From positions 1,590 to 65,589 of the forward strand of contig CAYUKQ010000002.1 in NCBI GenBank assembly GCA_964445355.1: a stretch of 64,000 bases of DNA, in the 5' to 3' direction. The notes beneath the pieces were generated by a model, which searched no databases, was not told where the DNA came from, and was given only the letters and a program-made list of their open reading frames with translations. The translations under genes and the position numbers were made by a program. Positions 11,988 through 64,000 of the stretch are shown here, piece after piece. Positions within the stretch are counted from its first letter, which is position 1; each line of letters starts with the position of its first letter. The DNA is from an uncultured Gammaproteobacteria bacterium. GTDB taxonomy: Bacteria; Patescibacteriota; Microgenomatia; CAYQLK01.

Positions 11988-11992
11988 GGTAT

Positions 11993-12595: not shown

Positions 12596-12602
12596 ATTAA
12601 GT

Positions 12603-15098: not shown

Positions 15099-15099
15099 A

Positions 15100-17768: not shown

Positions 17769-17769
17769 T

Positions 17770-18684: not shown

Positions 18685-18686
18685 AT

Positions 18687-19790
18687 ATGCGTATTTTTAT
18701 AGATGCGCGATTGTATGGCTCGGGCCATACAGGAATAGGGCGTTATAGTCAAAATTTAATTGACAATTTAATTGACATCAATAAAATTCACGACTTAATA
18801 TTATTGACGCATCAAAATGCATCAATCTCTTCTAAATCTAATTTGACGGTTATTAAAACATCAATCGGTCATTATGGATTTTCTGAACAGTTTAAACTAC
18901 TTAAACTAATCTCTTCTCACAACCCCGACCTTGTTCATTTTACGCATTTTAATCATCCGGTTCTTTACAATAAGCCATTTGTGGTCACAATTCATGACTT
19001 GATCAAGTCCGATTATAAAGACTACTCCTCATCAACCAGAACAAAAACCTATTACGAGATCAAACATTTTTTTTACCAAAAGGTAATTAAACATGCGGTA
19101 TTTAAATCACGCGCAATAATTACCCCATCAAACTTTTCTAAAACACGAATAATTTCTCATTTTCCAAACGTTGATAAAAAAAAGATAAACGTAATATATG
19201 AAGGTGTTGATGAATTTAAACAAATTAGTACAAAAAAAATACTCGATCAAAATAATTACTCAAAATATGGAAATTACTGCTTATACGTAGGTAATAGTTA
19301 TCCCTACAAAAATCTTAAGCTTGTTATTGAAGCAATAAAGCAAATTCCTCAACTCAATTTAGTTGTAGTCAGTAAGTCAAGCAAAGATCTCGATCTGATA
19401 AAAGCAAATACACAGCACAATAATCAATTTATTTTTCTTGAAAACGTTACGGATGCGGAACTTTCCTCGCTATATAAATATTCAAAATTTTTTATCTTTC
19501 CCTCAAAATCCGAAGGATTTGGTATCCCAGGGTTAGAAGCAATGGCCATGAGTACGCCGGTCATTTCGTCAAACGCCGGACCAATGCCTGAAATATATGG
19601 GTCTGCAGCTTTATATTTCGACCCTGATAATGTGGATGACTTAACTAAGGTAGTAAACAATTTATTACTAAACTATCAATCAGAATATATTCGACTGACT
19701 AGGCTTGGGAAATCGCAAATAAAGAAATATTCATGGTTAAGAATGGCTAAAGACACCCTTAAAATATATGAAAATTGCCTTAGTCTTTGA
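18687..19790 (+). CDS. GT4-family glycosyltransferase
   Basis: 'MRIFIDARLYGSGHTGIGRY' N-terminus and 'EGFGIPGLEAMAMSTPVISS' motif. Confidence 0.75.
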   Translation: MRIFIDARLYGSGHTGIGRYSQNLIDNLIDINKIHDLILLTHQNASISSKSNLTVIKTSIGHYGFSEQFKLLKLISSHNPDLVHFTHFNHPVLYNKPFVVTIHDLIKSDYKDYSSSTRTKTYYEIKHFFYQKVIKHAVFKSRAIITPSNFSKTRIISHFPNVDKKKINVIYEGVDEFKQISTKKILDQNNYSKYGNYCLYVGNSYPYKNLKLVIEAIKQIPQLNLVVVSKSSKDLDLIKANTQHNNQFIFLENVTDAELSSLYKYSKFFIFPSKSEGFGIPGLEAMAMSTPVISSNAGPMPEIYGSAALYFDPDNVDDLTKVVNNLLLNYQSEYIRLTRLGKSQIKKYSWLRMAKDTLKIYENCLSL

Positions 19791-20847
19791 TCCAATTACT
19801 CAAAACGGTGGAGCTGAAAAACTGTTGTGGTCCCTGGCTGATAGCTTGCCCATCGGTTCAGTTTTTACGGCCGTCGCCAATCCAGAAATTGTCCCAAAAA
19901 AATTATTACCAAGGATAATAACCTCTTGGATTCAAAATCTTCCGCTTGCCTACAAAAATCCTAAACCATACTTACCGTTTTTTCCATTAGCATACGAATC
20001 GTTTGATTTTAGTGATTTTGACTGTGTTATTTCGATTACGACTTTATTCGCGAAGGCTGTAATTACTCAGCCACACACACTTCATATTGGATATATCAAC
20101 TCCCCTCCGAGATTCCTATACTCCAAAAAAAACTTAGAGAAATACATCAACTCTCAATCTTTTGGATTAGCTCTTAATCCATTTTTTAACTGGTTAAAAA
20201 AATATGATCAAATCGCAACTAGACGTCCAGACATCTTAATAGCAAATTCCCATAACATTCAGCGTAAAATCCGCGACATTTATCATCTCGACAGTCAAGT
20301 AGTTTACCCGTTTGCTGATGATTTTTATTTTTCCTATGGATCAAAAACAGATCGATTAGATAATTTTGTGCTGGTTTCTAGACTTGAAAGATGGAAAAAC
20401 ATTGACTATGTCATCGAGGCTTTTAACCATCTGCCAGGAAAAAAATTAATTGTTGTCGGGGTTGGCAGTGATGGTAATCGTCTAAGGAAAAAAGCTGCTT
20501 CAAATATTTCCTTCACAGGCTGGATTGATTCTGCTTCTGTGGCCAAAATTGTTTCTAGTTCACAGGCCTTGATAATGCCACAGAATGAAGACTTCGGAAT
20601 TACATCAATCGAAGCACAAGCACTCCGAACGCCGGTGATCGCATTTGGTCAAGGTGGGGCAGTTGAAACGGTGATAAACAACCAGACAGGTATACTTTTT
20701 CCATCGCAAACCGTTGATTCGCTTACCCAAGCAGTTAACTCATTTACTCAAAAGAATTTCAGCGCTGACAAACTTTATCAAAATGCGCTAAAATACCGCG
20801 AGAAAGACTTTATTCAAAATATTTCAAAAATTATCTATGGGAAGTGA
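19768..20847 (+). CDS. GT4-family glycosyltransferase
   Basis: 'MKIALVFDPITQNGGAEKLL' GT4 N-terminus. Overlaps its neighbor by 23 nt. Confidence 0.7.
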   Translation: MKIALVFDPITQNGGAEKLLWSLADSLPIGSVFTAVANPEIVPKKLLPRIITSWIQNLPLAYKNPKPYLPFFPLAYESFDFSDFDCVISITTLFAKAVITQPHTLHIGYINSPPRFLYSKKNLEKYINSQSFGLALNPFFNWLKKYDQIATRRPDILIANSHNIQRKIRDIYHLDSQVVYPFADDFYFSYGSKTDRLDNFVLVSRLERWKNIDYVIEAFNHLPGKKLIVVGVGSDGNRLRKKAASNISFTGWIDSASVAKIVSSSQALIMPQNEDFGITSIEAQALRTPVIAFGQGGAVETVINNQTGILFPSQTVDSLTQAVNSFTQKNFSADKLYQNALKYREKDFIQNISKIIYGK

Positions 20848-53585: not shown

Positions 53586-54308
53586 TTATTTTCGATAATT
53601 AATCTTGAGCATTTTTTCTGTCTTATTGCCCGCTTGATCTTCTACAGATATTTTAATCTCGTTATCACCATCTTTGAGAGGATAATTATAAGTAAACTCG
53701 CCATTGTCATCCACTGACGTCCGCAGATTATTGAGCTTGACACTGGTAATTTCATCGGTCTTACCCTTAATTTCAGTTTTTGCTTCACCACCGGTAATTT
53801 GTTTTTCTGGTGAATCCGGCGAAATTATCTCAAGCTTGGGTGGTTTTGTATCAAGTAGGACCGTGATCGATTTTTCGTTTGATTTGTTGTTTGCGCCATC
53901 TTTTGCATATCCGACAATACTATTCTTGCCTTCCAATATCCTAAAATCACTAAACTCAAAACTGCCGTCAGAATCGGTCAATTTCTCGGTTTCTTTGCCA
54001 TTGAGCGTCAATATTACTGTACTTCCAGGCTCGGCATTTCCGGTGACATCCAATAGGGCTGAATTAGTTGCCCCGCCAATATAATCGAACGATGGGGAAC
54101 TTGGTGCGATAATATCGGTTTTGTTTGAAGCAGTGTCGATTGAGTTGCTGTTTCCGTTTATCAAACTGGCCAATTTGGCCAAAATTGGAACACCAAACAT
54201 TACCAGTACCACCAAAATAATCACTGATGCGGTAATTGTAAGAAAGAACTTACGATAAATCGCCCTTTCCTGGGCGTTTGATACCCTTCTGGTTTTATAG
54301 CGTTTCAT
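53586..54308 (-). CDS. Type II membrane protein with two bacterial Ig-like domains
   Basis: Basic N-terminus and one TM helix. Two repeats with 'GxxNxxS...DGxFxF...' Big-domain character. Confidence 0.5.
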   Translation of the reverse strand: MKRYKTRRVSNAQERAIYRKFFLTITASVIILVVLVMFGVPILAKLASLINGNSNSIDTASNKTDIIAPSSPSFDYIGGATNSALLDVTGNAEPGSTVILTLNGKETEKLTDSDGSFEFSDFRILEGKNSIVGYAKDGANNKSNEKSITVLLDTKPPKLEIISPDSPEKQITGGEAKTEIKGKTDEITSVKLNNLRTSVDDNGEFTYNYPLKDGDNEIKISVEDQAGNKTEKMLKINYRK

Positions 54309-54374
54309 CTATCAAAAATTATACCTTATTTTTTGCTATAAGCTCTTTATGTATCCTTCAAACTATTCATGGTT

Positions 54375-54446
54375 AGATAATCTGAGCCGAAGGTGGGAAT
54401 CGAACCCACGACCTACTGTTTACGAAACAGCCGCTCTACCACTGAG
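54375..54446 (-). tRNA. tRNA-Thr (anticodon CGU)
   Basis: The reverse complement folds as a cloverleaf: acceptor GCCGAAG/CTTCGGC, D-arm GCTC-AGTGGTA-GAGC, anticodon arm GCTGT-TTCGTAA-ACAGT, T-arm GTGGG-TTCGATT-CCCAC. CCA is not encoded. Confidence 0.8.
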
Positions 54447-54546
54447 CCACTTCGGCACTCCAATTTTAAATTCTGGCCTCAATATAAGGCAGAACCACCC
54501 CTTAGCTAGCTACCGCCAAATAATCCTCTCAGGGGCTAGATTATAA

Positions 54547-55272
54547 CTATTTAATGCCTTCCACCCAAGTACCTTTGTAGTTCGATATTTTTGCCAAATC
54601 GCCAGCTCTGATTTCATATTTTGGTAACAGTCCTATTTTAAGGTCATAATCTGGGTCAATAATATAGAATCGATCCAAATCGGCATCATAATCGCTGACT
54701 ACGATCAGATGACTTGCTTGCCGGGCAATTAATTCTGTTTTTGTTAATAATTGTCTCCTAGGAGCTACGGATAGTATCAAAATTTCACCCCTCTTAAGTC
54801 TGTTTTTGATATCGCTAATTTGTACATTTTCAAAAAAACCCGCTTTCAGTCCAAATTGGGAGAATAAATATTGCGAAATTCGGTGGTCATATCCACGGAT
54901 CAGGCTAAATGCCGGCTGGTATTTACTATCAGACTCGAACTCGCGTTGATTTTTTGCGAAATGGATTTCTTCCACAGTTCCGACTGTAATCCAGCGAGGT
55001 TCACCATCAAGAATGAACTTTTGTTTAACACTTGGTGATCCGTTTTTATGTAACAAATTGATTATATTAATCAGCCATTCGATATTCTGAATCTTTTTAT
55101 TAGTCGGATATTTACCAAAGTAATTAAGAATCATAGCAATACACGCAGGGCCGCAAACCACACGCCCTAAAACGCTTCTGTTTTGTAGGTCAACACTCAG
55201 GTCTTGTGAAATTGGGAAGAATTTTAGTGATTTTAATTCCAAAAGCCTGGGCCTGTCTGTTGTTTTGTTCAT
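54547..55272 (-). CDS. Peptidase C39-like (papain-fold) domain protein, standalone
   Basis: 'RVVCGPACIAMILNYFG' is a C39_2-type Cys motif and 'HLIVVSDYD...FYIIDP' a His motif. No TM segment and no fused ABC domain. Confidence 0.5.
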   Translation of the reverse strand: MNKTTDRPRLLELKSLKFFPISQDLSVDLQNRSVLGRVVCGPACIAMILNYFGKYPTNKKIQNIEWLINIINLLHKNGSPSVKQKFILDGEPRWITVGTVEEIHFAKNQREFESDSKYQPAFSLIRGYDHRISQYLFSQFGLKAGFFENVQISDIKNRLKRGEILILSVAPRRQLLTKTELIARQASHLIVVSDYDADLDRFYIIDPDYDLKIGLLPKYEIRAGDLAKISNYKGTWVEGIK

Positions 55273-55301
55273 CTAGTAATCGCTGTGTATATCCAAAAAA
55301 T

Positions 55302-55375
55302 TGGAGCGGGTAAGGGGAGTCGAACCCCTGTCTCAGCCTTGGGAAGGCCGCGTGCTACCGCTGTACCATACCCGC
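55302..55375 (-). tRNA. tRNA-Gly (anticodon CCC), CCA encoded
   Basis: Reverse complement GCGGGTA...CGGCC-TTCCCAA-GGCTG...AGGGG-TTCGACT-CCCCT-TACCCGC-T-CCA. Confidence 0.85.
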
Positions 55376-55380
55376 ATTGA

Positions 55381-55416
55381 TAAACAAAAAGCTAACTTAT
55401 TTAAGGTTAGCTTTTT
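55381..55416 (-). terminator. Bidirectional intrinsic terminator hairpin after the LysM gene
   Basis: The + strand reads aaaaa-AGCTAAC-ttatttaag-GTTAGCT-tttt. On the minus strand the stem is followed by TTTTTGTTT and ends 6 nt before the tRNA-Gly 5' end. Confidence 0.5.
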
Positions 55417-55460
55417 ACATTATCGTTTGAATTATTCTATCAAACTACCATCAACAAGCC

Positions 55461-56108
55461 TTACGGTAGCTTGATGGTGCTGCCACTATAAATAAGTGGG
55501 TTACCGAGTGAATTATTCTTGACGTTGTTTAGCTTTGCAATTTCGACCCATCGAGTCGGATCTCCATATTTGCTTTGAGCAATTTCCCAAAGCGTATCGC
55601 CTTCAACAACGGTATACTCTCCATTAACTGACTCCGGCTTAGCGACGACCTTATCTGTTGTCGATCTCATCGTGGCTGGTGTAAGAGTCGCTGCTGGTTT
55701 GCTTACCGTAGCGGTTGGTGTTGACGATTCAGGGATCTTGAGTGTCTGTCCAACTTCGACAGTTGTCGATTTAAGCTGATTTTCTTCGACCAGTAACGGC
55801 CAGAGATTAGCGTCGCCAAGTTCGCGTTTAGCAATTGACGACAGTGATTCTCCAGACTCGACCGTAACCACCTTGCCGGCTTGTTCCACATTGCTGACAT
55901 CTGTTTTGATGTCTGAAACAGTGTTTGTGCTTTTTACAAAATAATTAGCCACCAGAATTCCAATTGCGACCAAAATTATTGCGCCGAGAATAAACCCAGC
56001 ATAGTTTTCCTTCCAAACGAACCGATTCTGAACCTTTTCTGATTTTTTTGCCTCAGTCTTCAAACTGGACATCTTTGATCTATTAGTGGATTTTTTTGGC
56101 CTTGCCAT
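55461..56108 (-). CDS. Type II membrane protein with two LysM peptidoglycan-binding domains
   Basis: Lys-rich N-terminus and one TM helix. LysM signatures 'VVTVESGESLSSIA...GQTLKIP' and 'YTVVEGDTLWEIAQSKYGDP...GSTIKLP'. Confidence 0.75.
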   Translation of the reverse strand: MARPKKSTNRSKMSSLKTEAKKSEKVQNRFVWKENYAGFILGAIILVAIGILVANYFVKSTNTVSDIKTDVSNVEQAGKVVTVESGESLSSIAKRELGDANLWPLLVEENQLKSTTVEVGQTLKIPESSTPTATVSKPAATLTPATMRSTTDKVVAKPESVNGEYTVVEGDTLWEIAQSKYGDPTRWVEIAKLNNVKNNSLGNPLIYSGSTIKLP

Positions 56109-56201
56109 AAACTCCTATTGCTTCCTTTCTCAGCTCGTAACAATTGCGAGCTAATATTATTCTTTTAAGTTTTGGGCAGGAGGATTATTAAAATATTTGT
56201 G

Positions 56202-56276
56202 CGGACCCGAACGGATTCGAACCGTCGATCTCTTCCGTGACAGGGAAGCGTGTTAGGCCGGCTACACCACGGGTCC
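56202..56276 (-). tRNA. tRNA-Asp (anticodon GUC)
   Basis: Reverse complement GGACCCG-TG-GTGT...ACAC-G-CTTCC-CTGTCAC-GGAAG-AGATC-GACGG-TTCGAAT-CCGTC-CGGGTCC-G. Confidence 0.85.
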
Positions 56277-56371
56277 TTTCCGGAGTTAATAAACACGTAC
56301 CCGAGACTCACGTTGTCGAAGCTAAGTCCAAGCACTCTTACTAACCTAAAAAGTATAGCAACTTACTCCAA

Positions 56372-56417
56372 GTTGTCAATCCCGACCATTGACAACCCAT
56401 AATATATCAACTATAAC
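56372..56417 (+). promoter_or_regulatory. Perfect 8-bp inverted repeat operator (TTGTCAAT-N7-ATTGACAA) whose right arm forms the -35 of a TTGACA-16-TATAAC promoter
   Basis: Palindrome arms at 56372-56379 and 56387-56394. The -35 is at 56389-56394 and the -10 at 56411-56416. AAGGAG at 56445-56450 lies before the ATG at 56463. Confidence 0.45.
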
Positions 56418-56462
56418 GCTTCCCCAGGTACATTAACCATTTCCCAAGGAGTCACCAATAAC

Positions 56463-57023
56463 ATGGTTGCAATCAGTACCGAAGAGTTTTTTCGCAAACG
56501 GCAAGCTGAGTCCGTCAACCTCGTCCTGATGTTTGCCGATGTTCTGCATCAGTACTACGGCTTTATTCTACACCCCAAGATCGTCTGCCATGTGAGCTGT
56601 CACTGGAAGGATAGTTTCAGAATCAGCCTCGAACAGAGCGATGTCTCTGCAGGTGTCACACCACACCAGCTCGGACAGTTCAGTCTTGATTTCCCGTTCC
56701 AAAATGGTATCCGGGTTATGAGATGGCTTCGAGACTCGATTATTGGGCAGGGTCTGGGCATCGAGCTTCAGCGTCACAGTGCCGGAATCAAAAACTTCAG
56801 CTTTCTTTTAGCTGGCGATCCGCATAAGGTTGTCCAGGCAGTTCAGCTCATCAATATCGCCATGTTCGCGCTCGACCCGTGCGTTACGACCGATAAACGC
56901 TGTCCGCACTGCCCTCAGTCTTACGGCGACCCTTCATATCTCTACGATGATGGTGAGGTTCTGACTTGCGCCAGGTGCGATATGACCTTCGGTCGGCACC
57001 TTCTTGAGACGGAAACAGTCTAA
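56463..57023 (+). CDS. Hypothetical protein with C-terminal CxxC...CxxC zinc-ribbon; GC-rich relative to neighbors
   Basis: 186-aa ORF with its own promoter and operator, an AAGGAG Shine-Dalgarno, and a strong terminator immediately downstream. 'CPHCPQ...(17)...CARCD' zinc ribbon. Confidence 0.5.
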   Translation: MVAISTEEFFRKRQAESVNLVLMFADVLHQYYGFILHPKIVCHVSCHWKDSFRISLEQSDVSAGVTPHQLGQFSLDFPFQNGIRVMRWLRDSIIGQGLGIELQRHSAGIKNFSFLLAGDPHKVVQAVQLINIAMFALDPCVTTDKRCPHCPQSYGDPSYLYDDGEVLTCARCDMTFGRHLLETETV

Positions 57024-57047
57024 AAGCCTCCATTTGCCGTTCGCCAA

Positions 57048-57080
57048 GCCCAGACCATAACAAGTCTGGGCTTTTTCATT
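57048..57080 (+). terminator. Rho-independent terminator
   Basis: GCCCAGAC-cataacaa-GTCTGGGC followed by TTTTTCATTT. Confidence 0.7.
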
Positions 57081-57093
57081 TAAAATAGATTTG

Positions 57094-58839
57094 ATGAACG
57101 AGAATCGCCAAATTGCTCAGATTTTGCGTAACATTGCCTCAGTCTACGAAATTATAGGCAAGAGTTTTTTTGAGGTAGCGGCTTACAAAAGGGCGGCTGA
57201 TTCCGTCGAGCAGTCAACCAGTGATCTGAGGCAGCTCTGGAAAGCAGGCGAACTCGATACAGTTCCTGGATTAGGCAAAGCCCTAATCGGCTACATGAAT
57301 GAATACTTCGAAACAGGAAAAATTAAGCATTTCGAGTCAGTTTATAAAAAAGCCCCAAAAGGATTCTTTGAGCTGCTTACCGTACCAGGCATTGGCCCAA
57401 AAAAGGCTTACGAATTATGCACTAAGCTCAATATTAGCTCGATCGGCGATCTCGAGCGCGCAATTAAGTCGAACAGTATTTCAGCACTGCCTAGGTTTGG
57501 ACATAAGAGTCAGGAGCAAATAGCTAATAATCTCAGCAGAGTAGTCGCCAAATCACACAGAACACCTCTTTGGGTTGCCGATGCGGTGGTAAACGAAGTG
57601 ACTCAATGGATGCAGGCTGATCCAAAAATTCTCGATTTTGCCGCCCTTGGCAGTTTCAGAAGAAGGCTGAATAGTGTTGGTGATTTGGATTTTGCCGCCT
57701 CTAGTCACAACACTCAGGATGCGGTTGACAGATTTTTATCCTATCCGGCAATAGGTTCAATTGTTGAAAAAGGTCCAGCTTCGGCAACAATAACTCTTAA
57801 TGATACGGAATTTCAGCTGGATTTACTTGTGTCTGAACCGGATAGTTATGGAAGTCTTCTGCAGCATTTTACGGGTTCGCGGGAGCATAATATTGCTCTG
57901 CGCACCTTAGCGGTCAAAAAAAACCTGTCTCTATCTGAAAAAGGGATCAAATTAGCAAGTAATACGCTTAAAAAATTCGCAACAGAAAAAGAATTTTATA
58001 ATTTTCTTGGATTAGATTACATTCCGCCTGAATTGCGGGAAAATACTGGCGAAATCGAGCTTGCTCAGAAGCACAGTATCCCGCGACTGGTTAAAATAGA
58101 AGATATCAAGGGTGATTTTCACACCCACTCAAATTTTTTCACGACTTCTATGCACGACTTTGGTGCATCTTCAATCACGGATTTAGTATCGAAGGCCAAG
58201 GAGAAAAAATATCAATATTTAGGAATATCTGACCATCCTCCGTCAGAAAAAAGTTGGCAGGATCCTAAAATTATCAAACAAATAAAAAGCCATAGAACAA
58301 TAATTAATAGACTTAATGAACAAAAAAACTCTATAAGAGTAATTAATTTACTCGAAGTTGACATAGGTATCAATGGATCAATCAAGTTTCCTGATCAATA
58401 TGTTCAATATTATGACGCCTTCATTGCAGGAGTTCACTCTAATTTTTCACAGCCTCGAGAACAGATGACTCAGCGCATTCTGAATGGACTAACTTGTTCT
58501 AAAGTATTTGGGCTTTCTCATCCGACCGGTAGGCTAATAGACAAGCGTGAAGGATACGACGCTGATTGGGATCAGATCTTTGACTATTGCAGCAAAAATA
58601 ATAAGGTCTTAGAAATCAATGCTTCAGTCGATAGGCTTGATTTGACTGAAACCTTGGTCCGCCGTGCAAGTGCCAAAGGTTGTTTGTTTATGATTAATAC
58701 CGACACCCATGACCTGCCAAGTATGGATCTGATGAGTTACGGGGTGGACGTCGCCAGGCGAGGGGGATTGACTGCCGAGTCGATCATCAATACCTGGCCA
58801 AAAGATCGATTAATTAAATTCATCTTAAGGACTATATAA
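57094..58839 (+). CDS. Family X DNA polymerase (Pol beta-like) with C-terminal PHP phosphoesterase domain
   Basis: HhH motifs 'LPGIGKK'-like ('VPGLGKALIGY', 'VPGIGPKKAYEL'), nucleotidyltransferase core 'GSFRRRLNSVGDLDF', and PHP 'GDFHTHSNF...'. Confidence 0.8.
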   Translation: MNENRQIAQILRNIASVYEIIGKSFFEVAAYKRAADSVEQSTSDLRQLWKAGELDTVPGLGKALIGYMNEYFETGKIKHFESVYKKAPKGFFELLTVPGIGPKKAYELCTKLNISSIGDLERAIKSNSISALPRFGHKSQEQIANNLSRVVAKSHRTPLWVADAVVNEVTQWMQADPKILDFAALGSFRRRLNSVGDLDFAASSHNTQDAVDRFLSYPAIGSIVEKGPASATITLNDTEFQLDLLVSEPDSYGSLLQHFTGSREHNIALRTLAVKKNLSLSEKGIKLASNTLKKFATEKEFYNFLGLDYIPPELRENTGEIELAQKHSIPRLVKIEDIKGDFHTHSNFFTTSMHDFGASSITDLVSKAKEKKYQYLGISDHPPSEKSWQDPKIIKQIKSHRTIINRLNEQKNSIRVINLLEVDIGINGSIKFPDQYVQYYDAFIAGVHSNFSQPREQMTQRILNGLTCSKVFGLSHPTGRLIDKREGYDADWDQIFDYCSKNNKVLEINASVDRLDLTETLVRRASAKGCLFMINTDTHDLPSMDLMSYGVDVARRGGLTAESIINTWPKDRLIKFILRTI

Positions 58840-58887
58840 AATTTTGTTCAAAATTATTTATAAAAGACAGTCTGTTATAATCAGGTT

Positions 58888-59457
58888 ATGAATATCTTTA
58901 GTTCCGTACTTACTCTTCCGTTAATTGTCGTTGGAGCGATATTTCTATTTTTGTTGTTTTTGTACAACAGTCTGGTTAGACTGAGGATTAGAGTTAAAGA
59001 AGCGTGGTCTGGAATCGATGTTCAGCTCAAAAGACGTGCTGATCTTATTCCTAACCTAGTCGAAACAGTCAAAGGATACGCTAAACACGAAAAGTCAGTT
59101 TTTGAAAATGTCACCAAGGCCCGCGCTGCAATGTTGGCAGCCGAAGGCCCACAAGCCAAGGCTCAAGCAGAAAATATGCTGAGCAACACACTTAAATCTC
59201 TGTTTGCTGTTGCAGAAGCTTATCCAAAACTTCAAGCATCTGAGAATTTCAAACAACTCCAGGATGAGCTATCGGACACCGAATCCAAAATTGCATATGC
59301 AAGGCAGTTCTATAATGCTAACGTTCGTGACTACAACACCAAAATCGCTACTTTCCCAAACGTACTTTTAGCAGGGATGTTTGGTTTCAAGGAAGAAGAA
59401 TTTTTTGAGGCTATTGGTGATGATCGTGAGCCGGTCAAAGTAGATTTTGAGAAATAA
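58888..59457 (+). CDS. lemA: LemA-family protein
   Basis: One N-terminal TM helix and LemA signature '[20 protein letters not shown]...[20 protein letters not shown]'. Confidence 0.85.
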
Positions 59458-59600
59458 TCTTCTTTCTTCTTGCAATTGGTGTATCAAAATATCCCCTAGT
59501 ATTTGCATTTTTTCCTAATCAAGCTTAGAATCTGCATCAAATGAGCTCTGTAGTGATATCTCATAGAGCACGTTAACAACACTTACCGTGGAGTTCGTAA

Positions 59601-61364
59601 TTGTACAAGTTGCTAGGCAGTCTTGCCCTGAGTTTAGTCATCCTCATTTTGCCATCTCCATCATCAAACCAAGAGCGCTCCGGATCATCTTCTTTGATTT
59701 TTCTCGCCACTGACCAGGGACTTTTTAGTGCACACGAAAAAGATCAGAGTTTTAGCCGAATACCAAAATTCCAAAACATCAGTTTTCTGGAATCCAATCT
59801 GGAAAACCAGGCAGTCTTTCTGATCCATCAACCCGTGCCCGGCAGTATCGCTAATATTGCCGAGATCACCTACGATTTCGGAAAGAATTGGCTAACCGTC
59901 GACCCTGCCAAAACCGGGCTAACCAAGCCTGACGGGGCAAAAGTAACCAGTTTTGGTTACTTTACTGTTACCGACTCCAAAACATATGTTGCCGGAATCG
60001 GCTACGGACGCGTCGCTATCAAACTCACTTCCGAAAAAAACTGGAGACTACTCGATCTACAAGCCAACTCTGACAACTACCAAGTGATCGGAGAATGGCT
60101 CTATCTGCTTTCGCCAAAAGGTTACGAGAACCAGCTGGTTCGCTGTTCGCTCGTCACATTCCAATTGGAGGTTTTAACCAATCCCGAAAGCCCGAACTCT
60201 CGATTCGCAGGATTCGAGCTTGTCGGTGTGGTCGATCACCAGTTGCTGTTAAGTACTTCAGGATCCGATGGTCTCAGGTTATTTGATCCCGAAAACCAAA
60301 TCTTTTCAGCACGCCTTAGTGGTAATTTCGACCGGATTTATGCGTCTGCAAAGGGGGTTGCTACCCAAAATACTCAAAACTACGAAGTTGCTGTCTGGGG
60401 AAGCTCGCTGGAAAAAGTTGCTAGCTATCTAGCCGAAAGCAACGAGGTGCTTGGTTACAGTCTGCAAAACGACTGTTTATACCAATTAAGCCTCGATCTG
60501 CTGAGATGCTTACCTGCCGGTCGTTCAATCTCTTTGCCGATCTCGCTCACACGTTCCGAATTTGCCTTCGCCGGCCTTGCTGTGGTCTACCCACCGCACG
60601 CAGTGGATCACCAAGGGGCAGAACCGGTTTTGTTTGTCTCCGGACTGGGTGGAGGAGCGCTTGGTGACCTTTACTGGGAAGGCAAGCACAAGGATTTGAT
60701 ACCACTGACAACCGTTTCAGGTCATAACTTTATGCTAAGCCGATCCACCTGGACCACGGGGCAGTTGGGGTACTTCTTGACTTTCGACTTCGTGCTCAGT
60801 CACGATATCTGTTCAATCGCCGAAGTGGTTGGACGGTCAGTTGACTACATCAGACTTAGGTCTGGTGTAGAAAAAATCGATTTGATCGGCTATTCGATGG
60901 GAGGTCTACTGGCTCGTTGTTTTGTGGAGGATTTGGTTCCTTTGTACAGATACGACGACTCGGTTGATGATCTCCTGCTTATCGCCACTCCGAACAACGG
61001 TTCCTTTGCGGCCGGCTTGGCTGGACCTCTGCTCGGCTTCATCGACCTTTATAAGGGTTTGCAGGCCAGCTGGCTAACTCCATATAGTCCGCAGATCCAC
61101 CACATCAACTCAAAGCCAATTCCGTTTGGTGTTTCAGTCACGGTAATCTATGGCACCGGTTTCTGGTTGCCACTCTATGAGGGAAACGACGGACTAGTGT
61201 CTTACTTCGATGCGAGACTTGACCCGTCGGTCAAGGCCTCTGTTCGATACATAGAACTGCCTGAAGCGGTTCATTCTCGATCACACGACCATCTGGAGAA
61301 GCATTATCCGATCCTGGAGGATAAACTATTCTTGTTTGATCAAATCAAACTAATGGGGAAGTGA
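59601..61364 (+). CDS. Secreted two-domain protein: N-terminal domain of unknown fold plus C-terminal alpha/beta-hydrolase (lipase/esterase-like)
   Basis: TTG start 7 nt after GGAG. Signal peptide. C-terminal 'VLFVSGLGGG' oxyanion region and 'GYSMGG' GXSXG nucleophile elbow. About 52% GC. Confidence 0.6.
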   Translation: MYKLLGSLALSLVILILPSPSSNQERSGSSSLIFLATDQGLFSAHEKDQSFSRIPKFQNISFLESNLENQAVFLIHQPVPGSIANIAEITYDFGKNWLTVDPAKTGLTKPDGAKVTSFGYFTVTDSKTYVAGIGYGRVAIKLTSEKNWRLLDLQANSDNYQVIGEWLYLLSPKGYENQLVRCSLVTFQLEVLTNPESPNSRFAGFELVGVVDHQLLLSTSGSDGLRLFDPENQIFSARLSGNFDRIYASAKGVATQNTQNYEVAVWGSSLEKVASYLAESNEVLGYSLQNDCLYQLSLDLLRCLPAGRSISLPISLTRSEFAFAGLAVVYPPHAVDHQGAEPVLFVSGLGGGALGDLYWEGKHKDLIPLTTVSGHNFMLSRSTWTTGQLGYFLTFDFVLSHDICSIAEVVGRSVDYIRLRSGVEKIDLIGYSMGGLLARCFVEDLVPLYRYDDSVDDLLLIATPNNGSFAAGLAGPLLGFIDLYKGLQASWLTPYSPQIHHINSKPIPFGVSVTVIYGTGFWLPLYEGNDGLVSYFDARLDPSVKASVRYIELPEAVHSRSHDHLEKHYPILEDKLFLFDQIKLMGK

Positions 61365-61386
61365 AATCACTACCAAAAGCTCTTTA

Positions 61387-61417
61387 GCCCCGCATACTTA
61401 CTTGCGGGGCATTTTTT
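61387..61417 (+). terminator. Rho-independent terminator
   Basis: GCCCCGCA-tacttact-TGCGGGGC followed by ATTTTTT. Confidence 0.7.
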
Positions 61418-61451
61418 AATTTAAAATGTCGTCTATAAAAGACTTATAGTA

Positions 61452-61480
61452 TTTACATATATCATAAAAAATGATAAAAT
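61452..61480 (+). promoter_or_regulatory. Near-consensus sigma70 promoter (TTTACA-17-TAAAAT)
   Basis: Hexamers at 61452-61457 and 61475-61480, sitting in an AT-rich stretch upstream of a GC-rich small ORF. Confidence 0.45.
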
Positions 61481-61599
61481 TGCTGGTAACAGGTTACAGC
61501 TTCTTCTATCCGTTCAGGCTGGAGACCTTAAGTCAAGTGGCACCTTAACCACTCTCAGAACCAACAACCCTAATCACTTAGAAAAAGCGAGGAGACATT

Positions 61600-61758
61600 T
61601 TGACCCCCGAGCGCAAGAAAGCCCTCAAACGCGGATCGATCAAGTACGGCAAGAAATACGCCCGCCAGTCATGGCGAACCTCAGGACTGCTTACCCAGCT
61701 GATCCAACGGATCGCCTACGCCCTGGCCGGATTCGGCCGCTCGACCCCTCCGCAGTAA
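61600..61758 (+). CDS. Candidate 52-aa basic small protein (TTG start, not in ORF track)
   Basis: GAGGAG lies 5 nt upstream of TTG. The product is (M)TPERKKALKRGSIKYGKKYARQSWRTSGLLTQLIQRIAYALAGFGRSTPPQ. Codons are strongly GC3-biased, unlike host genes. Confidence 0.35.
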   Translation: MTPERKKALKRGSIKYGKKYARQSWRTSGLLTQLIQRIAYALAGFGRSTPPQ

Positions 61759-61792
61759 TGCGGGAATTATTTCACGGAGTGTTTTCACAACC

Positions 61793-63187
61793 ATGTTCAG
61801 CTTCGCTGATGGGTGGCAAAACCACCTTAAAAGACTTCTGATCTTTGGAGTAATGCTGCTGGCAGCATTTATGCCGCTAACAGCCAATGCTCAAAGCCCA
61901 ACAGTCGATCCGTCTGTGTGGCGCTTTGTCACACATCAGGAGCGTCTGTATATCGCCTCAGGCAGTCAGGAGTTCGTTACGGAAGTCGACACTAGTCAAC
62001 TTCCGTCCAAACTCTTTCTCCGGCCTCAGCTGGATGAAAAAGGCAACATTTACCTTCTGTCTGCCTCGTCGTCAAGTTCTGCGCTCTCGCTATACTACAG
62101 CCGGACCGAAAACGGCAAAAGTCGCTGGTACGAACTAAGTGCCAAGAGTCTCGGACTCTCGTCCGGCTCCGGCATTTACGACTACTCTGTCAGCAAGCAG
62201 GGCACACTCACGATTCTGGGGCAGACTGGTGAAGTCATAACCGGCCAGGCTGGTGTCGACCAATCATATAAGCTTCAGCAGTCGGATCTACCGCCACGGG
62301 TCAGCTTCACCAAGTTCGTCAGCAACGTTGGTCAGACAGCAATTGCTACTACGCAAGGGCTGGTCAGTCTGTTTGGTGACAACGGCAAGCTGAACAAGTC
62401 CAGCTACTTAAAGGCTGGAATCGGGGAGCATGAATCAATTTCGGCACTTGGTCCTGCGCTGTATGTGTACCCCGGGCCACGCAATCCGCAAGCCGAAGAT
62501 CGCAAAGCAGTTACCTACGTCCACCAGTTCGCCGACAATAGTCTGTCGAAGATCACACTCGACAGTCCGATCGTCGACATGATGCTCGTCGGTGATTATG
62601 ATTACCATCTCGTCTTGACTGAGCAAAAGGTCTGGATGTTTTCGAGGTCAACCTCTCAGGCATTCGGTCAGCTGGTCGACGTTACTGCCAAATTCGGGCA
62701 ACCGCCCGTTAAGGCGATCACGAGCTATAACAGAGGCAAGGATAACGTTTTTTACGTATCTGCCGGTGACAAAGTCAGCAGGTATGTGATCAACAGTCCC
62801 ACCGACATTACCTCCACCGCGCTCAAGCTACTTGCTCCGACCTACAAGATCGCCTCATCAGTCTCTGGTGTGGGCACTAGCGGGGCACTTGCGCCTACGC
62901 CGCAGAACCCGAATGAGGTTGTCCCTTCTCAGCCGGGACAGTCTCAAGGTGTATCTACCAATCAGTCGGGTACAATCATCCAAACAACGGTGGTTGAACA
63001 GCCAGTAGCAGGGGATCAATCAAATAAGTCGTTTTGGTCGCCGGCGGTGATCATCTCGATCGTTGTGATCGTCCTCGCGCTGGTTTTGTTTATCGTTCTT
63101 GCTCGTTTGATCTTTTCTCGGGCAAAGAATCGCTTCCCGCCAGCCGGCACGACGATGCATCCGCCACACGGTCGTCGTCTGCCGTAG
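61793..63187 (+). CDS. Cell-surface protein: signal peptide, about 400-aa ectodomain, C-terminal TM anchor with short basic tail
   Basis: '...LLAAFMPLTANA/QSP' signal peptide; C-terminal 'AVIISIVVIVLALVLFIVLARLIF' helix. About 52% GC. Confidence 0.5.
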   Translation: MFSFADGWQNHLKRLLIFGVMLLAAFMPLTANAQSPTVDPSVWRFVTHQERLYIASGSQEFVTEVDTSQLPSKLFLRPQLDEKGNIYLLSASSSSSALSLYYSRTENGKSRWYELSAKSLGLSSGSGIYDYSVSKQGTLTILGQTGEVITGQAGVDQSYKLQQSDLPPRVSFTKFVSNVGQTAIATTQGLVSLFGDNGKLNKSSYLKAGIGEHESISALGPALYVYPGPRNPQAEDRKAVTYVHQFADNSLSKITLDSPIVDMMLVGDYDYHLVLTEQKVWMFSRSTSQAFGQLVDVTAKFGQPPVKAITSYNRGKDNVFYVSAGDKVSRYVINSPTDITSTALKLLAPTYKIASSVSGVGTSGALAPTPQNPNEVVPSQPGQSQGVSTNQSGTIIQTTVVEQPVAGDQSNKSFWSPAVIISIVVIVLALVLFIVLARLIFSRAKNRFPPAGTTMHPPHGRRLP

Positions 63188-63212
63188 AAAAGTGTCACGT
63201 TTCATATCTCTC

Positions 63213-63247
63213 GACCCAGTCTTTCTTTTAAGACTGGGTCTTTTTTA
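63213..63247 (+). terminator. Rho-independent terminator (10-bp perfect stem)
   Basis: GACCCAGTCT-ttctttta-AGACTGGGTC followed by TTTTTT. Confidence 0.75.
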
Positions 63248-63267
63248 ATTTTTACCCGACACGAACT

Positions 63268-63276
63268 TGGTATAAT
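63268..63276 (+). promoter_or_regulatory. Extended -10 promoter element (TGgTATAAT) upstream of htpX
   Basis: TG at 63268-63269 and TATAAT at 63271-63276. The ATG is at 63305. Confidence 0.35.
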
Positions 63277-63304
63277 CAAAGCCCTGTAAATAAAAACATT
63301 GAAC

Positions 63305-64000
63305 ATGAAATTCGAGAGCGAAAGAACAATCTATTCCCAAATTGGCATCAACCGCCTCAAAACAGCGGTATTAATGATACTTTTTACCGTGTTTATTACG
63401 ATCATGGTATATATTTTCACTCAAGCACTTGGTTATCAGTCGTCATCCGGTCTGTTGTTTGTTGGTGTCGCTTTGATTATCACAGGGGTTATGAACTATT
63501 TGGCTTACTTTAACTCCGACAAGATGGTGATGAAGATCGCCGGAGCACAAATTGTTGACGCAAAATCTCACCCTCAATTATTCAAATTAGTTGAAAACCT
63601 GTCTATTGGTTCAGGATTACCAATGCCAAAAACTTATCTCATTCCGGACGATGCTCCCAACGCCTTCGCGACCGGACGTGATCCCAAACATGCTTCAATA
63701 GCCGTAACAACCGGCCTGCTGGATATTATGAGTAAAACAGAGCTGGAAGGTGTGCTTGCACACGAACTTAGTCATATTGGTAACTACGACACTAGATTAA
63801 TGACGGTTGTGGTCATTTTGGTAGGTGTTGTGGCTATGCTGGCGGACTTTTTCAGTCATTTTATGTTCTTTGGTGGTAGTAATAATGATGATCGCGAATC
63901 TCGTAATGGATTATTTTTGATCCTGGGTATCCTTGCTGCCATTCTTGCTCCGATTGCAGCCCAGCTGATTCAATTGGCTGTTTCACGCAAGCGAGAATAT
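63305..64000 (+). CDS. htpX: M48 zinc metalloprotease HtpX (3'-truncated at window end)
   Basis: Two N-terminal TM helices and the 'VLAHELSHIGNYD' HExxH motif. The ORF is still open at position 64000. Confidence 0.8.
   Translation, partial: MKFESERTIYSQIGINRLKTAVLMILFTVFITIMVYIFTQALGYQSSSGLLFVGVALIITGVMNYLAYFNSDKMVMKIAGAQIVDAKSHPQLFKLVENLSIGSGLPMPKTYLIPDDAPNAFATGRDPKHASIAVTTGLLDIMSKTELEGVLAHELSHIGNYDTRLMTVVVILVGVVAMLADFFSHFMFFGGSNNDDRESRNGLFLILGILAAILAPIAAQLIQLAVSRKREY

What the first reader, a model, noticed from the sequence alone, without database searches (positions are those of the whole stretch)
59470..63250. GC-rich (about 50-55%) island of secreted and surface proteins splitting a lemA-htpX pair
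lemA (58888-59457) and htpX (63305 onward) are usually adjacent partners in bacterial genomes. Here they are separated by 3.8 kb of markedly higher GC with GC3-rich codons. The insert encodes a lipase-like exported protein, a mini-protein and a membrane-anchored surface protein. Two strong terminators (61387-61417, 63213-63247) and a consensus promoter bracket the units. The composition and position suggest horizontal acquisition from a higher-GC donor into an otherwise conserved locus.
Basis: partly seen in the sequence, partly recalled or inferred. Interest (0 to 1): 0.65.

Follow-up and report, generated by a model that had tools for sequence, protein, structure and literature searches.

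The report
Old GC-rich surface-protein insert, not recent transfer
A 3.8-kb GC-rich stretch really does split the normally adjacent lemA and htpX genes of this candidate-phyla-radiation bacterium. It is an old, vertically inherited, lineage-specific pair of cell-surface gene units, not a recent import from a GC-rich donor.

Summary
Bases 59470-63250 are 49.3% GC against 36.4% for the rest of the window (z=4.5), and GC3 is 0.52-0.76 against a background of 0.32±0.045. The segment lies between LemA and an M48/HtpX gene. In 75 of 80 related LemA loci, HtpX follows LemA on the same strand, and 51 of those have a gap of 150 bp or less.

The insert holds two transcription units, each with a conserved promoter and terminator:
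- an exported beta-propeller plus lipase-like alpha/beta-hydrolase with a Ser432-Asp530-His558 triad;
- a conserved 52-aa basic mini-protein, followed by a signal-peptide, beta-propeller, stalk and C-terminal membrane-anchor protein.

Every relative found, down to 31-40% identity in the insert proteins, carries the same genes at the same place with the same GC3 excess. The insert proteins co-diverge with the flanking genes (rho 0.85-0.98). Four-fold sites are saturated between lineages. No homologues were found outside this small clade; for the surface protein, an exhaustive profile search of 1.84 billion proteins gave only 3 clusters. No mobility genes or flanking repeats are present.

So the high GC is a gene-specific equilibrium, not a donor signature. 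The lemA|htpX junction is a recurrent insertion point in Microgenomates-type genomes. Interest is moderate to low.

The parts
58888..59457 (+). lemA (189 aa), upstream flank of the insert
   Evidence: Pfam LemA E=5.4e-64. It is 82-98% identical in the close clade.
59497..59531 (+). Promoter of unit 1: TAGTAT upstream element, -35 TTTGCA (59502-59507), 18-nt spacer, -10 TAGAAT (59526-59531)
   Evidence: Found by the scan and conserved in relatives (alignment A6). It shares the 12-mer TAGTATTTRCAT with the unit 2 promoter.
59601..61364 (+). Unit 1 gene (587 aa). N-terminal signal or anchor helix (aa 2-16), beta-propeller (about aa 30-330), alpha/beta-hydrolase (about aa 343-587). Motifs: GYSMGG (Ser432, codon 60894-60896), Asp530, His558.
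   Evidence: Pfam Abhydrolase_1 scores 26.5 bits against a cutoff of 25.8. DUF7379, PGAP1, Palm_thioest, LCAT and Lipase_2 score below threshold but appear in 9-11 of 11 members. The triad columns are invariant. The AF2 model has pLDDT 71.7, and its top PDB matches are S9 propeller-hydrolases.
61387..61417 (+). Intrinsic terminator of unit 1 (8-bp stem with 7 GC pairs, then a T-run)
   Evidence: Found by the scan. Conserved, with compensatory stem changes in relatives.
61447..61480 (+). Promoter of unit 2: TAGTAT element, -35 TTTACA (61452-61457), 17-nt spacer, TG-extended -10 TAAAAT (61475-61480)
   Evidence: Matches 10 of 12 consensus positions and has the TG. Conserved in all relatives.
61600..61758 (+). 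Mini-ORF: 52 aa, 12 K+R against 1 D+E, TTG start with a GAGGAG Shine-Dalgarno sequence upstream
   Evidence: Conserved in frame as a peptide (46-88% identity), and its indels are multiples of 3. It is present wherever the 464-aa gene is present.
61749..61764 (+). Small hairpin (CCGCA gtaa TGCGG) spanning the mini-ORF stop, 29 nt before the ORFC start
   Evidence: Flagged as terminator-like. Its sequence is conserved in the alignment. Its function was not tested.
61793..63187 (+). Unit 2 main gene (464 aa). Sec signal peptide (...ANA|QSP), beta-propeller ectodomain (aa 44-351), disordered Pro/Gln-rich stalk (aa 352-416), TM helix (aa 417-447), basic cytoplasmic tail.
   Evidence: Alignments A4 and A5. 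The AF2 model has pLDDT 71.6 and gives generic WD40/YVTN propeller matches. No Pfam, NCBIfam or PDB sequence hit.
63213..63247 (+). Intrinsic terminator of unit 2 (11-bp stem, then a T-run)
   Evidence: Found by the scan. Conserved, with compensatory changes.
63267..63276 (+). Extended -10 (TTGGTATAAT) of htpX's own promoter
   Evidence: Invariant in all six aligned lineages.
63305..64000 (+). htpX (M48 peptidase), cut by the window end; downstream flank
   Evidence: Pfam Peptidase_M48 E=3e-20. In other assemblies it is a full 307-aa gene followed by gatCAB.
56463..57023 (+). 186-aa ORF outside the insert with the same conserved GC3 excess (0.583). It is clade-specific and has a C-terminal CxxC...CxxC motif.
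   Evidence: GC3 is 0.583 in the window and 0.59-0.65 in relatives. It has no family hit and is absent from outgroup loci.

Best explanation
The segment is a clade-specific cell-envelope module that entered the lemA|htpX junction in an ancestor of this small Patescibacteria (Microgenomates-like) clade. It has been inherited vertically since then.

It consists of two separately transcribed units.
- Unit 1 makes a Sec-exported enzyme. An N-terminal beta-propeller is fused to a small lipase/acyl-esterase-like alpha/beta-hydrolase with a Ser432-Asp530-His558 triad. The likely role is as an extracellular ester or lipid hydrolase whose substrate access or targeting is set by the propeller.
- Unit 2 is a two-gene operon. 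A very basic 52-aa protein is followed 34 nt later by a type-I membrane protein that displays a beta-propeller on a Pro/Gln-rich stalk. The likely role is as an adhesin or receptor.

Shown here: the anatomy, the conservation, the vertical inheritance and the restriction to the clade.
Inferred: a surface, host-contact or lipid-scavenging function.

The high GC is not a foreign signature. It is a gene-specific equilibrium at synonymous sites that has persisted while the background GC3 of the lineages moved between about 0.33 and 0.50. Selection on synonymous sites is the more likely cause for the 464-aa gene. GC-biased gene conversion is the alternative.
For: Same genes, place and order in relatives:
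- L009/L010 (hydrolase 72% identical), L011, L012/L019 and L017/L018 (47-48%) all show LysM-186aa-PolX-LemA-hydrolase-mini-464aa-HtpX-GatCAB.
- In L013/L014 (39%) unit 1 is inverted and an extra 168-aa gene is present. In L015/L016 (44%) unit 1 follows LemA without unit 2.

Conserved GC3 excess: the 464-aa gene is 0.535-0.645 in every lineage and the hydrolase 0.40-0.55. Flanking genes are 0.33-0.45 in most lineages, and up to about 0.53 in L013, whose whole background is higher and where only the 464-aa gene clearly exceeds it.

Saturation: third-position identity at four-fold sites is about at chance between the window and the distant lineages in the flanks and in the hydrolase. GC4 of the 464-aa gene nevertheless stays at 0.54-0.68.

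Co-divergence with PolX, LemA and HtpX: Spearman 0.85-0.98.

Family size: 11 proteins for the hydrolase, even with a profile query. For the 464-aa protein, 3 clusters with E<1e-10 among 1.84e9 representatives. No relatives in viral contigs.

Derived state: 14 of 22 PolX-LemA..HtpX loci have LemA and HtpX 133 bp or less apart. The other 8 carry inserts; the seven outside the focal clade lack the hydrolase and 464-aa genes and the five examined carry unrelated genes.

Protein anatomy. Promoters and terminators conserved.
Against: - How the genes first arrived is unknown. An ancient transfer from an unsampled donor cannot be excluded.
- The cause of the GC3 excess is not established. There is no Akashi-type enrichment of GC3 at conserved residues, and ribosomal protein L21 and FtsZ are not GC3-rich. 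Ordinary translational selection is therefore not indicated.
- Excess synonymous conservation in the 464-aa and 186-aa genes is only mild (0.31-0.45 against 0.27 expected).
- The hydrolase domain has only marginal Pfam support, and its AF2 confidence is low over aa 463-587.
- All functions are inferred from sequence and models. No expression or activity data exist.
- Pairwise identities in the co-divergence test are not independent.
Confidence: 0.75

Rival explanations
1. One reading: a recent horizontal acquisition from a higher-GC donor, with the GC and codon usage being the un-ameliorated signature of that donor.
For: Strong compositional contrast. The position interrupts a conserved gene pair. 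The units carry their own promoters and terminators.
Against: - Present at the same site, with the same GC3 excess, in all relatives down to 31-40% protein identity.
- Synonymous sites are saturated between those lineages.
- Co-divergence with the flanks.
- No homologue outside the clade.
- No integrase, transposase, flanking repeats or adjacent tRNA.
- Intergenic parts are not GC-rich.
Confidence: 0.03
2. An ancient horizontal acquisition at the base of the clade from an unsampled GC-rich donor. The present GC richness is then kept by a secondary force, or by very slow amelioration.
For: - The insertion is derived relative to the widespread LemA-HtpX adjacency.
- The junction has taken up other cargo in neighbouring lineages, in one case next to a TraG/VirD4-like ATPase.
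- Both genes are orphans without detectable paralogues in the window.
Against: - No donor or outside homologue was found in 5.8e9 and 1.84e9 protein collections.
- Slow amelioration is incompatible with saturated four-fold sites.
- A 186-aa gene outside the insert, and an 85-89-aa gene after gatB in relatives, show the same GC3 excess. The trait is therefore not tied to this insertion event.
Confidence: 0.15
3. GC-biased gene conversion: the insert is a local recombination hot spot, as expected for fast-evolving surface genes, and this drives GC3 up without selection on codons.
For: - Both C- and G-ending codons are enriched (ATC, AAC, TAC, but also AAG, CTG, CCG).
- The GC3 excess is even along the genes and shows no Akashi effect.
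- The insert proteins evolve 2-3 times faster than the flanks.
- The link between recombination and GC3 in bacteria is described in PMC4450053.
Against: - Intergenic DNA inside the segment is barely richer than elsewhere (0.369 against 0.330).
- The insert proteins' divergence tracks the flanks', with no sign of exchange.
- The cytoplasmic-looking 186-aa gene shows the same excess.
- No population data were available to measure recombination.
Confidence: 0.2
4. An assembly or binning chimera: a GC-rich fragment from another organism joined into this contig.
For: The source appears to be an assembly from uncultured material; the protein turns up only in metagenome-derived records. There is an abrupt change of composition.
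Against: - The LemA-hydrolase junction is reproduced in five other assemblies from different samples. The hydrolase-ORFC and ORFC-HtpX junctions are each reproduced in one.
- The same architecture is seen in at least five diverged lineages.
Confidence: 0.01

Closest known systems
S9 serine peptidases (acylaminoacyl peptidase of Aeropyrum pernix, prolyl oligopeptidase)
   Same: Two-domain architecture: an N-terminal beta-propeller followed by a C-terminal alpha/beta-hydrolase with Ser-Asp-His in that order and a GxSxGG elbow. These are the top Foldseek matches over the full length (E about 1e-13).
   Different: About 11% identity and TM-score about 0.3. No Peptidase_S9 Pfam hit in any of 11 members, even at E<=0.1. 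The hydrolase domain's sub-threshold hits are all lipid-acting families. The protein is exported, whereas the matched S9 enzymes are, to my knowledge, mostly soluble intracellular or periplasmic (not checked here).
Small lipid-acting alpha/beta-hydrolases: class 2 lipases (PF01674), PGAP1-like (PF07819), LCAT, palmitoyl thioesterase, DUF7379
   Same: Nucleophile elbow region, the overall small size of the hydrolase domain, and an exported location. These are consistent sub-threshold matches in 9-11 of 11 family members. The weak PDB sequence hits are secreted lipases.
   Different: All scores fall below the curated cutoffs except the generic Abhydrolase_1 model (26.5 against 25.8 bits). The fusion to a beta-propeller is, as far as I know, not typical of these families (not checked here). 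Activity is untested.
Surface-displayed beta-propellers such as the YVTN propeller of the Methanosarcina surface-layer protein (PDB 1l0q)
   Same: A beta-propeller exposed outside the cell. It is among the Foldseek matches for both proteins.
   Different: The similarity is at the generic fold level only (9-12% identity). Here the propeller sits on a disordered stalk with a single C-terminal TM anchor.
Classical genomic islands (horizontally acquired, compositionally atypical inserts)
   Same: Atypical composition, insertion into a conserved gene pair, and self-contained transcription units.
   Different: No patchy distribution, mobility genes, flanking repeats, outside homologues or phylogenetic conflict. 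It is richer, not poorer, in GC than the genome.
lemA-htpX gene pair (for example SPD_1139/SPD_1138 in Streptococcus pneumoniae D39)
   Same: The flanking genes are this pair. They are adjacent in 51 of 80 related loci (gap of 150 bp or less). In pneumococcus they are adjacent and change together in one RNase-mutant transcriptome comparison (PMC8546594).
   Different: Here the pair is separated by 3.8 kb, and htpX has its own conserved extended -10 promoter.

Membership tests
Recently acquired genomic island (HGT) | Composition atypical for the host genome | tested here: met
   GC 0.493 against 0.364, with GC3 z-scores of 4.4-9.7.
Recently acquired genomic island (HGT) | Patchy presence: absent from the same site in close relatives | tested here: not met
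   All six diverged lineages recovered carry the hydrolase next to LemA. Five of them carry both units between LemA and HtpX.
Recently acquired genomic island (HGT) | Mobility signatures (integrase or transposase, flanking direct repeats, tRNA target) | tested here: not met
   No such genes are present. Only trivial repeats were found. The nearest tRNA is 3.2 kb upstream of the insert, beyond PolX and LemA.
Recently acquired genomic island (HGT) | Homologues in a plausible donor lineage, or gene tree in conflict with species tree | tested here: not met
   No homologue was found outside the clade. Pairwise identities track those of the flanks, rho 0.85-0.98.
Recently acquired genomic island (HGT) | Composition still drifting toward the host's (amelioration incomplete) | tested here: not met
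   Four-fold sites are saturated between lineages, yet GC4 remains high in each of them.
Alpha/beta-hydrolase superfamily | GxSxG nucleophile elbow and a Ser-Asp-His triad in canonical order, conserved | tested here: met
   GYSMGG (S432), D530 and H558 are invariant in 11 sequences. Abhydrolase_1 scores 26.5 against a cutoff of 25.8 bits.
Class 2 lipase / PGAP1-like / DUF7379 families | Score above the family's curated Pfam threshold | tested here: not met
   In the window protein, DUF7379 scores 22.9 against 33, PGAP1 21.9 against 24.3, and Lipase_2 is absent even at E<=0.1. Over the 11 members the best E-values are only 5e-6 to 6e-4, though the hits are consistent across 9-11 members.
Class 2 lipase / PGAP1-like / DUF7379 families | Ester or lipid hydrolase activity | not testable with these tools
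   Needs an enzyme assay.
S9 prolyl oligopeptidase family | N-terminal beta-propeller plus C-terminal alpha/beta-hydrolase architecture | tested here: met
   AF2 model and Foldseek top hits.
S9 prolyl oligopeptidase family | Sequence membership (Peptidase_S9 profile) | tested here: not met
   No hit at E<=0.1 in any of 11 members.
Conserved lemA-htpX gene pair | htpX immediately downstream of lemA on the same strand in related genomes | tested here: met
   75 of 80 loci have it downstream on the same strand, and 51 have a gap of 150 bp or less. The sample is the best LemA matches only, drawn from Patescibacteria and Chloroflexota.
Leaderless class IId bacteriocins (aureocin A53-like), considered for the mini-protein | Significant sequence similarity to the family | tested here: not met
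   PDB 2n8o gives E=0.37-0.56 over 22 residues. Pfam Bacteriocin_IIi gives E=0.12 in 1 of 6 members.
Leaderless class IId bacteriocins (aureocin A53-like), considered for the mini-protein | About 50 aa, strongly cationic, no leader peptide | tested here: met
   52 aa with 12 K+R against 1 D+E.
Leaderless class IId bacteriocins (aureocin A53-like), considered for the mini-protein | Neighbouring exporter or immunity genes | tested here: not met
   No ABC transporter was found in the insert or in the flanks that were annotated, window 53586-64000.

The most novel reading that the evidence does not exclude
A small set of clade-specific genes is held at GC3 0.48-0.76 by selection on synonymous sites, while the rest of each genome drifts between about 0.33 and 0.50. 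The set comprises the 464-aa surface propeller, its 52-aa partner, the 186-aa zinc-ribbon-like protein upstream of PolX, and an 85-89-aa protein after gatB. This would mean a codon-usage-defined expression class in a reduced CPR genome, for example genes translated efficiently only in a particular state such as host attachment. A secondary, weaker possibility is that the 52-aa cationic protein is a leaderless-bacteriocin-like membrane-active peptide.
Probability: 0.15. Interest if true: 0.6.

Novelty: new member of a known kind. Interest (0 to 1): 0.3.

Why it matters
As proposed (a fresh import from a GC-rich donor), the finding would have been a routine genomic island, and that reading does not hold.

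What remains is modest but useful.
- It is a worked example that a strong compositional anomaly can be old and gene-specific. GC or GC3 alone should not be used to call horizontal transfer in CPR genomes.
These are reasonable candidates for host contact or lipid scavenging in organisms that, from general knowledge of CPR bacteria, lack lipid synthesis.
- It shows that the lemA|htpX junction is a recurrent insertion point in Microgenomates-type genomes.

The persistence of high GC3 against a shifting background is the only part a specialist might find curious.

Tried and rejected
- **Paralogy between the two propellers.** hhalign gave 20% probability, so it was rejected.
- **Defence-system or phage origin.** There were no PADLOC or PHROG hits and no relatives in IMG/VR.
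- **Known RNA elements.** Rfam at gathering threshold found only three tRNAs upstream.
- **Mobile-element boundaries.** Only short chance repeats were found, plus the similar T-tails of the two terminators.
- **Translational-selection signature.** The Akashi-type contrast of conserved against variable residues was negative. L21 and FtsZ are not GC3-rich.
- **Shared promoter motif as a regulon marker.** TAGTATTTRCAT occurs exactly at the two insert promoters, but the count is not significant against shuffles.
- **5' leader hairpin before the hydrolase.** RNAalifold support was weak, and my coordinates for two relatives were off because their gene starts were called differently. I left this as a passing note.
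- **Source assembly.** The look-up via P0001 failed.
- **Literature.** A search for Patescibacteria lipase or lipid scavenging returned nothing relevant.
- **Mini-protein.** Its only hits are an insignificant aureocin A53-like motif and a Tad2-like one.

Full report
**Observation.** The segment 59470-63250 is 49.3% GC against 36.4% for the rest of the 64-kb window. It is the richest of all 3.8-kb windows, with z=4.5; 500-bp windows inside it reach 0.48-0.54. Per gene, GC3 is 0.517 for the 587-aa ORF (59601-61364), 0.755 for the 52-aa ORF (61600-61758) and 0.591 for the 464-aa ORF (61793-63187). The mean for 53 other ORFs of the window is 0.318 (sd 0.045). Both C-ending and G-ending codons are enriched: ATC 0.72 against 0.21, AAC 0.68 against 0.29, AAG 0.58 against 0.24, CTG 0.27 against 0.09. 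The excess is confined to coding sequence, since the intergenic stretches of the segment are 0.369 GC against 0.330 elsewhere.

**Flanks and signals.** The flanks are LemA (58888-59457, Pfam E=5e-64) and an M48/HtpX peptidase starting at 63305 and cut by the window end.

**Not an artefact.** The LemA-hydrolase junction is reproduced, at 99-100% protein identity, in five other assemblies from different samples. The hydrolase-ORFC junction is reproduced in one and the ORFC-HtpX-GatCA junction in one.

**Is lemA-htpX a conserved pair?** A scan of one genome per species (GTDB r232) with an alignment of this clade's LemA returned 80 loci. These came from Patescibacteria (named Curtiss-, Woese-, Gottesman-, Levy- and Roizmanbacteria, WWE3, Microgenomates) and from Chloroflexota/Dehalococcoidia.
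- In 75 of the 80, an HtpX homologue lies downstream on the same strand. In 51 the gap is 150 bp or less.
- Among the 22 loci that share the PolX-LemA...HtpX arrangement of this window, 14 have the two genes 133 bp or less apart and 8 have an insert of 0.85-4.1 kb.
- One of those 8 (L019) belongs to the focal clade. The other seven lack the hydrolase and 464-aa genes, and the five whose genes were examined carry unrelated cargo: prs-pyrF-pyrE-pyrD-UPF0047 in a Curtissbacteria locus (L026, with a colinear set of ORFs in L027 and L043); a phosphoribosyltransferase plus a TraG/VirD4-like ATPase in L021; a phosphoribosyltransferase in L022; and BacA in L032.
- In Streptococcus pneumoniae D39 the genes are also neighbours (SPD_1138/1139) and change together in one RNase-mutant transcriptome comparison (PMC8546594).

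Adjacency is the common state, the junction is a recurrent insertion point, and the arrangement here is derived.

**Is it a horizontal import from a GC-rich donor?** The evidence says no, at least not in any sense that the composition could reveal.
- Homologues of the 587-aa and 464-aa proteins are very few: 11 and 9 clusters in a 5.8-billion-protein collection. A profile query for the first adds only one marginal hit. An exhaustive HMM search of 1.84 billion representatives with the second finds only three clusters at E<1e-10. Viral contigs hold none.
- Every homologue whose context could be fetched lies at the same place. L009/L010 (72% identity), L011, L012 and L017/L018 (47-48%) all show LysM - 186-aa ORF - PolX - LemA - hydrolase - mini-ORF - 464-aa ORF - HtpX - GatCAB - FKBP - DnaE.
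- In L013/L014 (39%) the hydrolase unit is inverted and carries an extra 168-aa secreted ORF, but it still sits between LemA and mini-ORF-ORFC-HtpX. In L015/L016 (44%) LemA is followed by the hydrolase, a 154-aa homologue of that extra ORF, and then sortase-RuvX, with no HtpX nearby.
- The GC3 excess is present in each lineage. The 464-aa gene is 0.535-0.645 and the hydrolase 0.40-0.55. PolX, LemA, HtpX and Gat are 0.33-0.45 in most lineages and about 0.50 in L013, whose whole background is higher.
That is what is found.

**Age of the composition.** At four-fold degenerate sites under identical amino acids, third-position identity was compared between the window and the L011/L012/L017/L015/L013 lineages. 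It is at or near the value expected from base composition alone, both in the flanking genes (0.20-0.39 against 0.24-0.32) and in the hydrolase (0.25-0.30 against 0.25). Synonymous sites have therefore been fully turned over. Under the standard amelioration argument (Lawrence and Ochman 1997, from my own knowledge), any donor signature would be gone. Yet GC4 of the 464-aa gene is 0.54-0.68 in every lineage.

The high GC is therefore a gene-specific equilibrium.
- As the background GC3 varies from about 0.34 (L011) to about 0.50 (L013), the 464-aa gene and the 186-aa ORF upstream of PolX stay at 0.54-0.65. The hydrolase partly follows the background.
- Those two genes also show a mild excess of synonymous conservation (0.31-0.45 against 0.27 expected).
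- Pairwise protein identities of the insert genes track those of PolX, LemA and HtpX (Spearman 0.85-0.98; the pairs are not independent) while being much lower in absolute terms. This fits vertical descent with 2-3-fold faster protein evolution.
- No integrase, transposase or significant flanking repeats are present. The three tRNAs lie 3-5 kb upstream, beyond PolX.

**Unit 1.**
- Its promoter is at 59497-59531 (TAGTAT-TTTGCA-18-TAGAAT). It is conserved in relatives, where the -35 is TTGACA in several.
- The 587-aa product has an N-terminal hydrophobic helix (aa 2-16) and a confidently modelled beta-propeller (aa about 30-330, pLDDT 80-90). One blade resembles NHL-type designed propellers.
- Its C-terminal alpha/beta-hydrolase is modelled with lower confidence. 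GYSMGG (Ser432), NDGLVS (Asp530) and AVHS (His558) are invariant in all 11 sequences.
- Only the generic Abhydrolase_1 model passes its Pfam threshold (26.5 against 25.8 bits). The sub-threshold hits are the same in 9-11 of 11 members and are all lipid-acting: DUF7379, PGAP1, palmitoyl thioesterase, LCAT, class 2 lipase, DUF676. Peptidase_S9 never appears.
- By fold, the whole protein matches S9 acylaminoacyl and prolyl oligopeptidases, which have the same propeller-then-hydrolase architecture (E about 1e-13, but TM about 0.3 and 11% identity).
- I therefore read it as an exported propeller-coupled serine ester/lipid hydrolase. It is analogous in architecture to S9 enzymes but is not a sequence member of that family.
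- A terminator follows at 61387-61417, with compensatory stem changes between lineages.

**Unit 2.**
- The promoter at 61447-61480 (TAGTAT-TTTACA-17-TG-TAAAAT) is conserved in all relatives.
- After a leader of about 110 nt comes the 52-aa ORF (TTG start, GAGGAG Shine-Dalgarno). It is conserved as a peptide (46-88% identity; invariant T2 P3 R5 L9 K15 Y16 W25 S28 G29 ... G46 R47), and its indels are multiples of three. It is present wherever the 464-aa gene is present. It has 12 K+R against 1 D+E.
- In L013/L014 the homologous first codon is CTA, without a Shine-Dalgarno sequence, so the start there is unclear.
- Its stop lies in a small conserved hairpin, and the 464-aa ORF starts 34 nt later behind a GGAG. 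The two genes are thus one operon.
- The 464-aa protein has a Sec signal peptide with invariant A33-Q34 at the predicted cleavage site. It continues with a beta-propeller ectodomain (aa 44-351), a disordered Pro/Gln-rich stalk (352-416), one TM helix (417-447) and a basic tail. Structural matches are generic WD40/YVTN propellers. No sequence family matches. It is not detectably related to the hydrolase's propeller.
- A second conserved terminator (63213-63247) closes the unit. htpX then has its own invariant extended -10 (TTGGTATAAT, 63267-63276).

**Likely function.**
- Shown: export and anchoring signals, propeller folds, an intact catalytic triad, conserved transcription signals and fast protein evolution.
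- Inferred: both products act at the cell surface. For a CPR bacterium this most plausibly means contact with a host cell or scavenging of lipid-derived material. That CPR bacteria generally lack lipid synthesis is my own knowledge, not tested here.
- The role of the mini-protein is unknown. Its only database echoes are insignificant: a 22-residue match to the leaderless bacteriocin aureocin A53 (E 0.37-0.56), and one member at E=0.12 to the corresponding Pfam family. No exporter or immunity genes lie nearby.

**Cause of the GC3 excess.** This is unresolved.
- Ordinary translational selection is not indicated. Conserved and variable residues have the same GC3, and ribosomal protein L21 and FtsZ have GC3 of 0.31 and 0.30.
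- GC-biased gene conversion (PMC4450053) would fit the even, C+G-wide shift and the fast evolution. It is weakened by the ordinary GC of the intergenic parts and by the lack of any sign of exchange.
- Selection on synonymous sites of another kind is favoured for the 464-aa and 186-aa genes, because their GC3 is stable against a moving background and their synonymous sites are mildly conserved.

**Verdict.** What is there is an old, vertically inherited, clade-restricted pair of envelope gene units. In kind it is ordinary, because lineage-specific surface genes occupy a recurrent insertion point. Interest is 0.3, and the novelty class is a new member of a known kind.

Noticed in passing
window 56463-57023 (+): A 186-aa ORF with no family hit and a C-terminal CxxC...CxxC motif. 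Its GC3 is 0.583 (z=5.9). It is conserved (69-80% aa) with GC3 0.59-0.65 in all close relatives, and tblastn does not find it in outgroup loci that keep PolX-LemA. It shows the same 'GC-locked' behaviour as the 464-aa gene although it lies outside the insert.
   Followed up: partly
L009 17831-18088, L011 17928-18197, L012 17863-18132, L017 14253-14510 (beyond the window end, after gatB): A conserved 85-89-aa acidic ORF with GC3 0.48-0.52, again above its flanks (0.33-0.45).
   Followed up: no
L021 2546-4714 (-), L026 8476-12328, L032 2549-5400: The lemA|htpX junction holds different cargo in neighbouring Microgenomates-type lineages: prs-pyrF-pyrE-pyrD-UPF0047 in Curtissbacteria, a phosphoribosyltransferase plus a TraG/VirD4-like coupling ATPase in L021, and BacA in L032. 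The junction is a recurrent insertion or rearrangement point.
   Followed up: partly
window 59497-59508 and 61447-61458: Both insert promoters carry the same 12-mer TAGTATTTRCAT spanning the -35. Those are its only exact occurrences in the window, and it is conserved in relatives. By count it is not significant against shuffles.
   Followed up: partly
window about 59552-59578 (5' leader of the hydrolase gene): A conserved stem-loop (GCTCTGT...ATAGAGC here, GCCCTAT...ATAGGGC in other subclades) with at least one C-G to U-A compensatory change. RNAalifold support was weak, and my coordinates for two relatives were off.
   Followed up: partly
L013 9641-9799 (-) and L014 2099-2242 (-): In the most distant lineage the mini-ORF is conserved in frame, but the codon homologous to the TTG start is CTA, with no Shine-Dalgarno sequence and no canonical start upstream in the open frame. 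The start, or translation itself, is unclear there.
   Followed up: no
L013 11824-12330 (+), L015 11773-12237 (+): An extra 154-168-aa ORF with an N-terminal hydrophobic segment overlaps the stop of the hydrolase gene in the two more distant lineages. The two copies are 41% identical to each other. The ORF is absent from the window's subclade, where a terminator follows the hydrolase directly.
   Followed up: partly
window 1-20000: The first 20 kb is markedly AT-rich (GC 0.285-0.34, GC3 0.24-0.31), below the 0.36-0.41 of the 27-48 kb region. I annotated 10 ORFs in 27-50 kb; they include MraZ, a PBP, FtsA, FtsZ, CTP synthase, a class I tRNA synthetase, FtsW and L21. The composition of this genome is therefore heterogeneous in both directions. 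The low-GC block was not annotated.
   Followed up: no
window 54385-54456, 55305-55375, 56202-56276 (-): Three tRNA genes are interleaved one by one with genes for a Big-domain protein, a C39-like peptidase and a LysM protein.
   Followed up: no
L003 1650-3227, L004 1650-3227: In two assemblies of the same organism PolX is called as 525 aa, with a gap of about 175 bp before LemA instead of 48 bp. This could be a frameshift or a strain variant.
   Followed up: no
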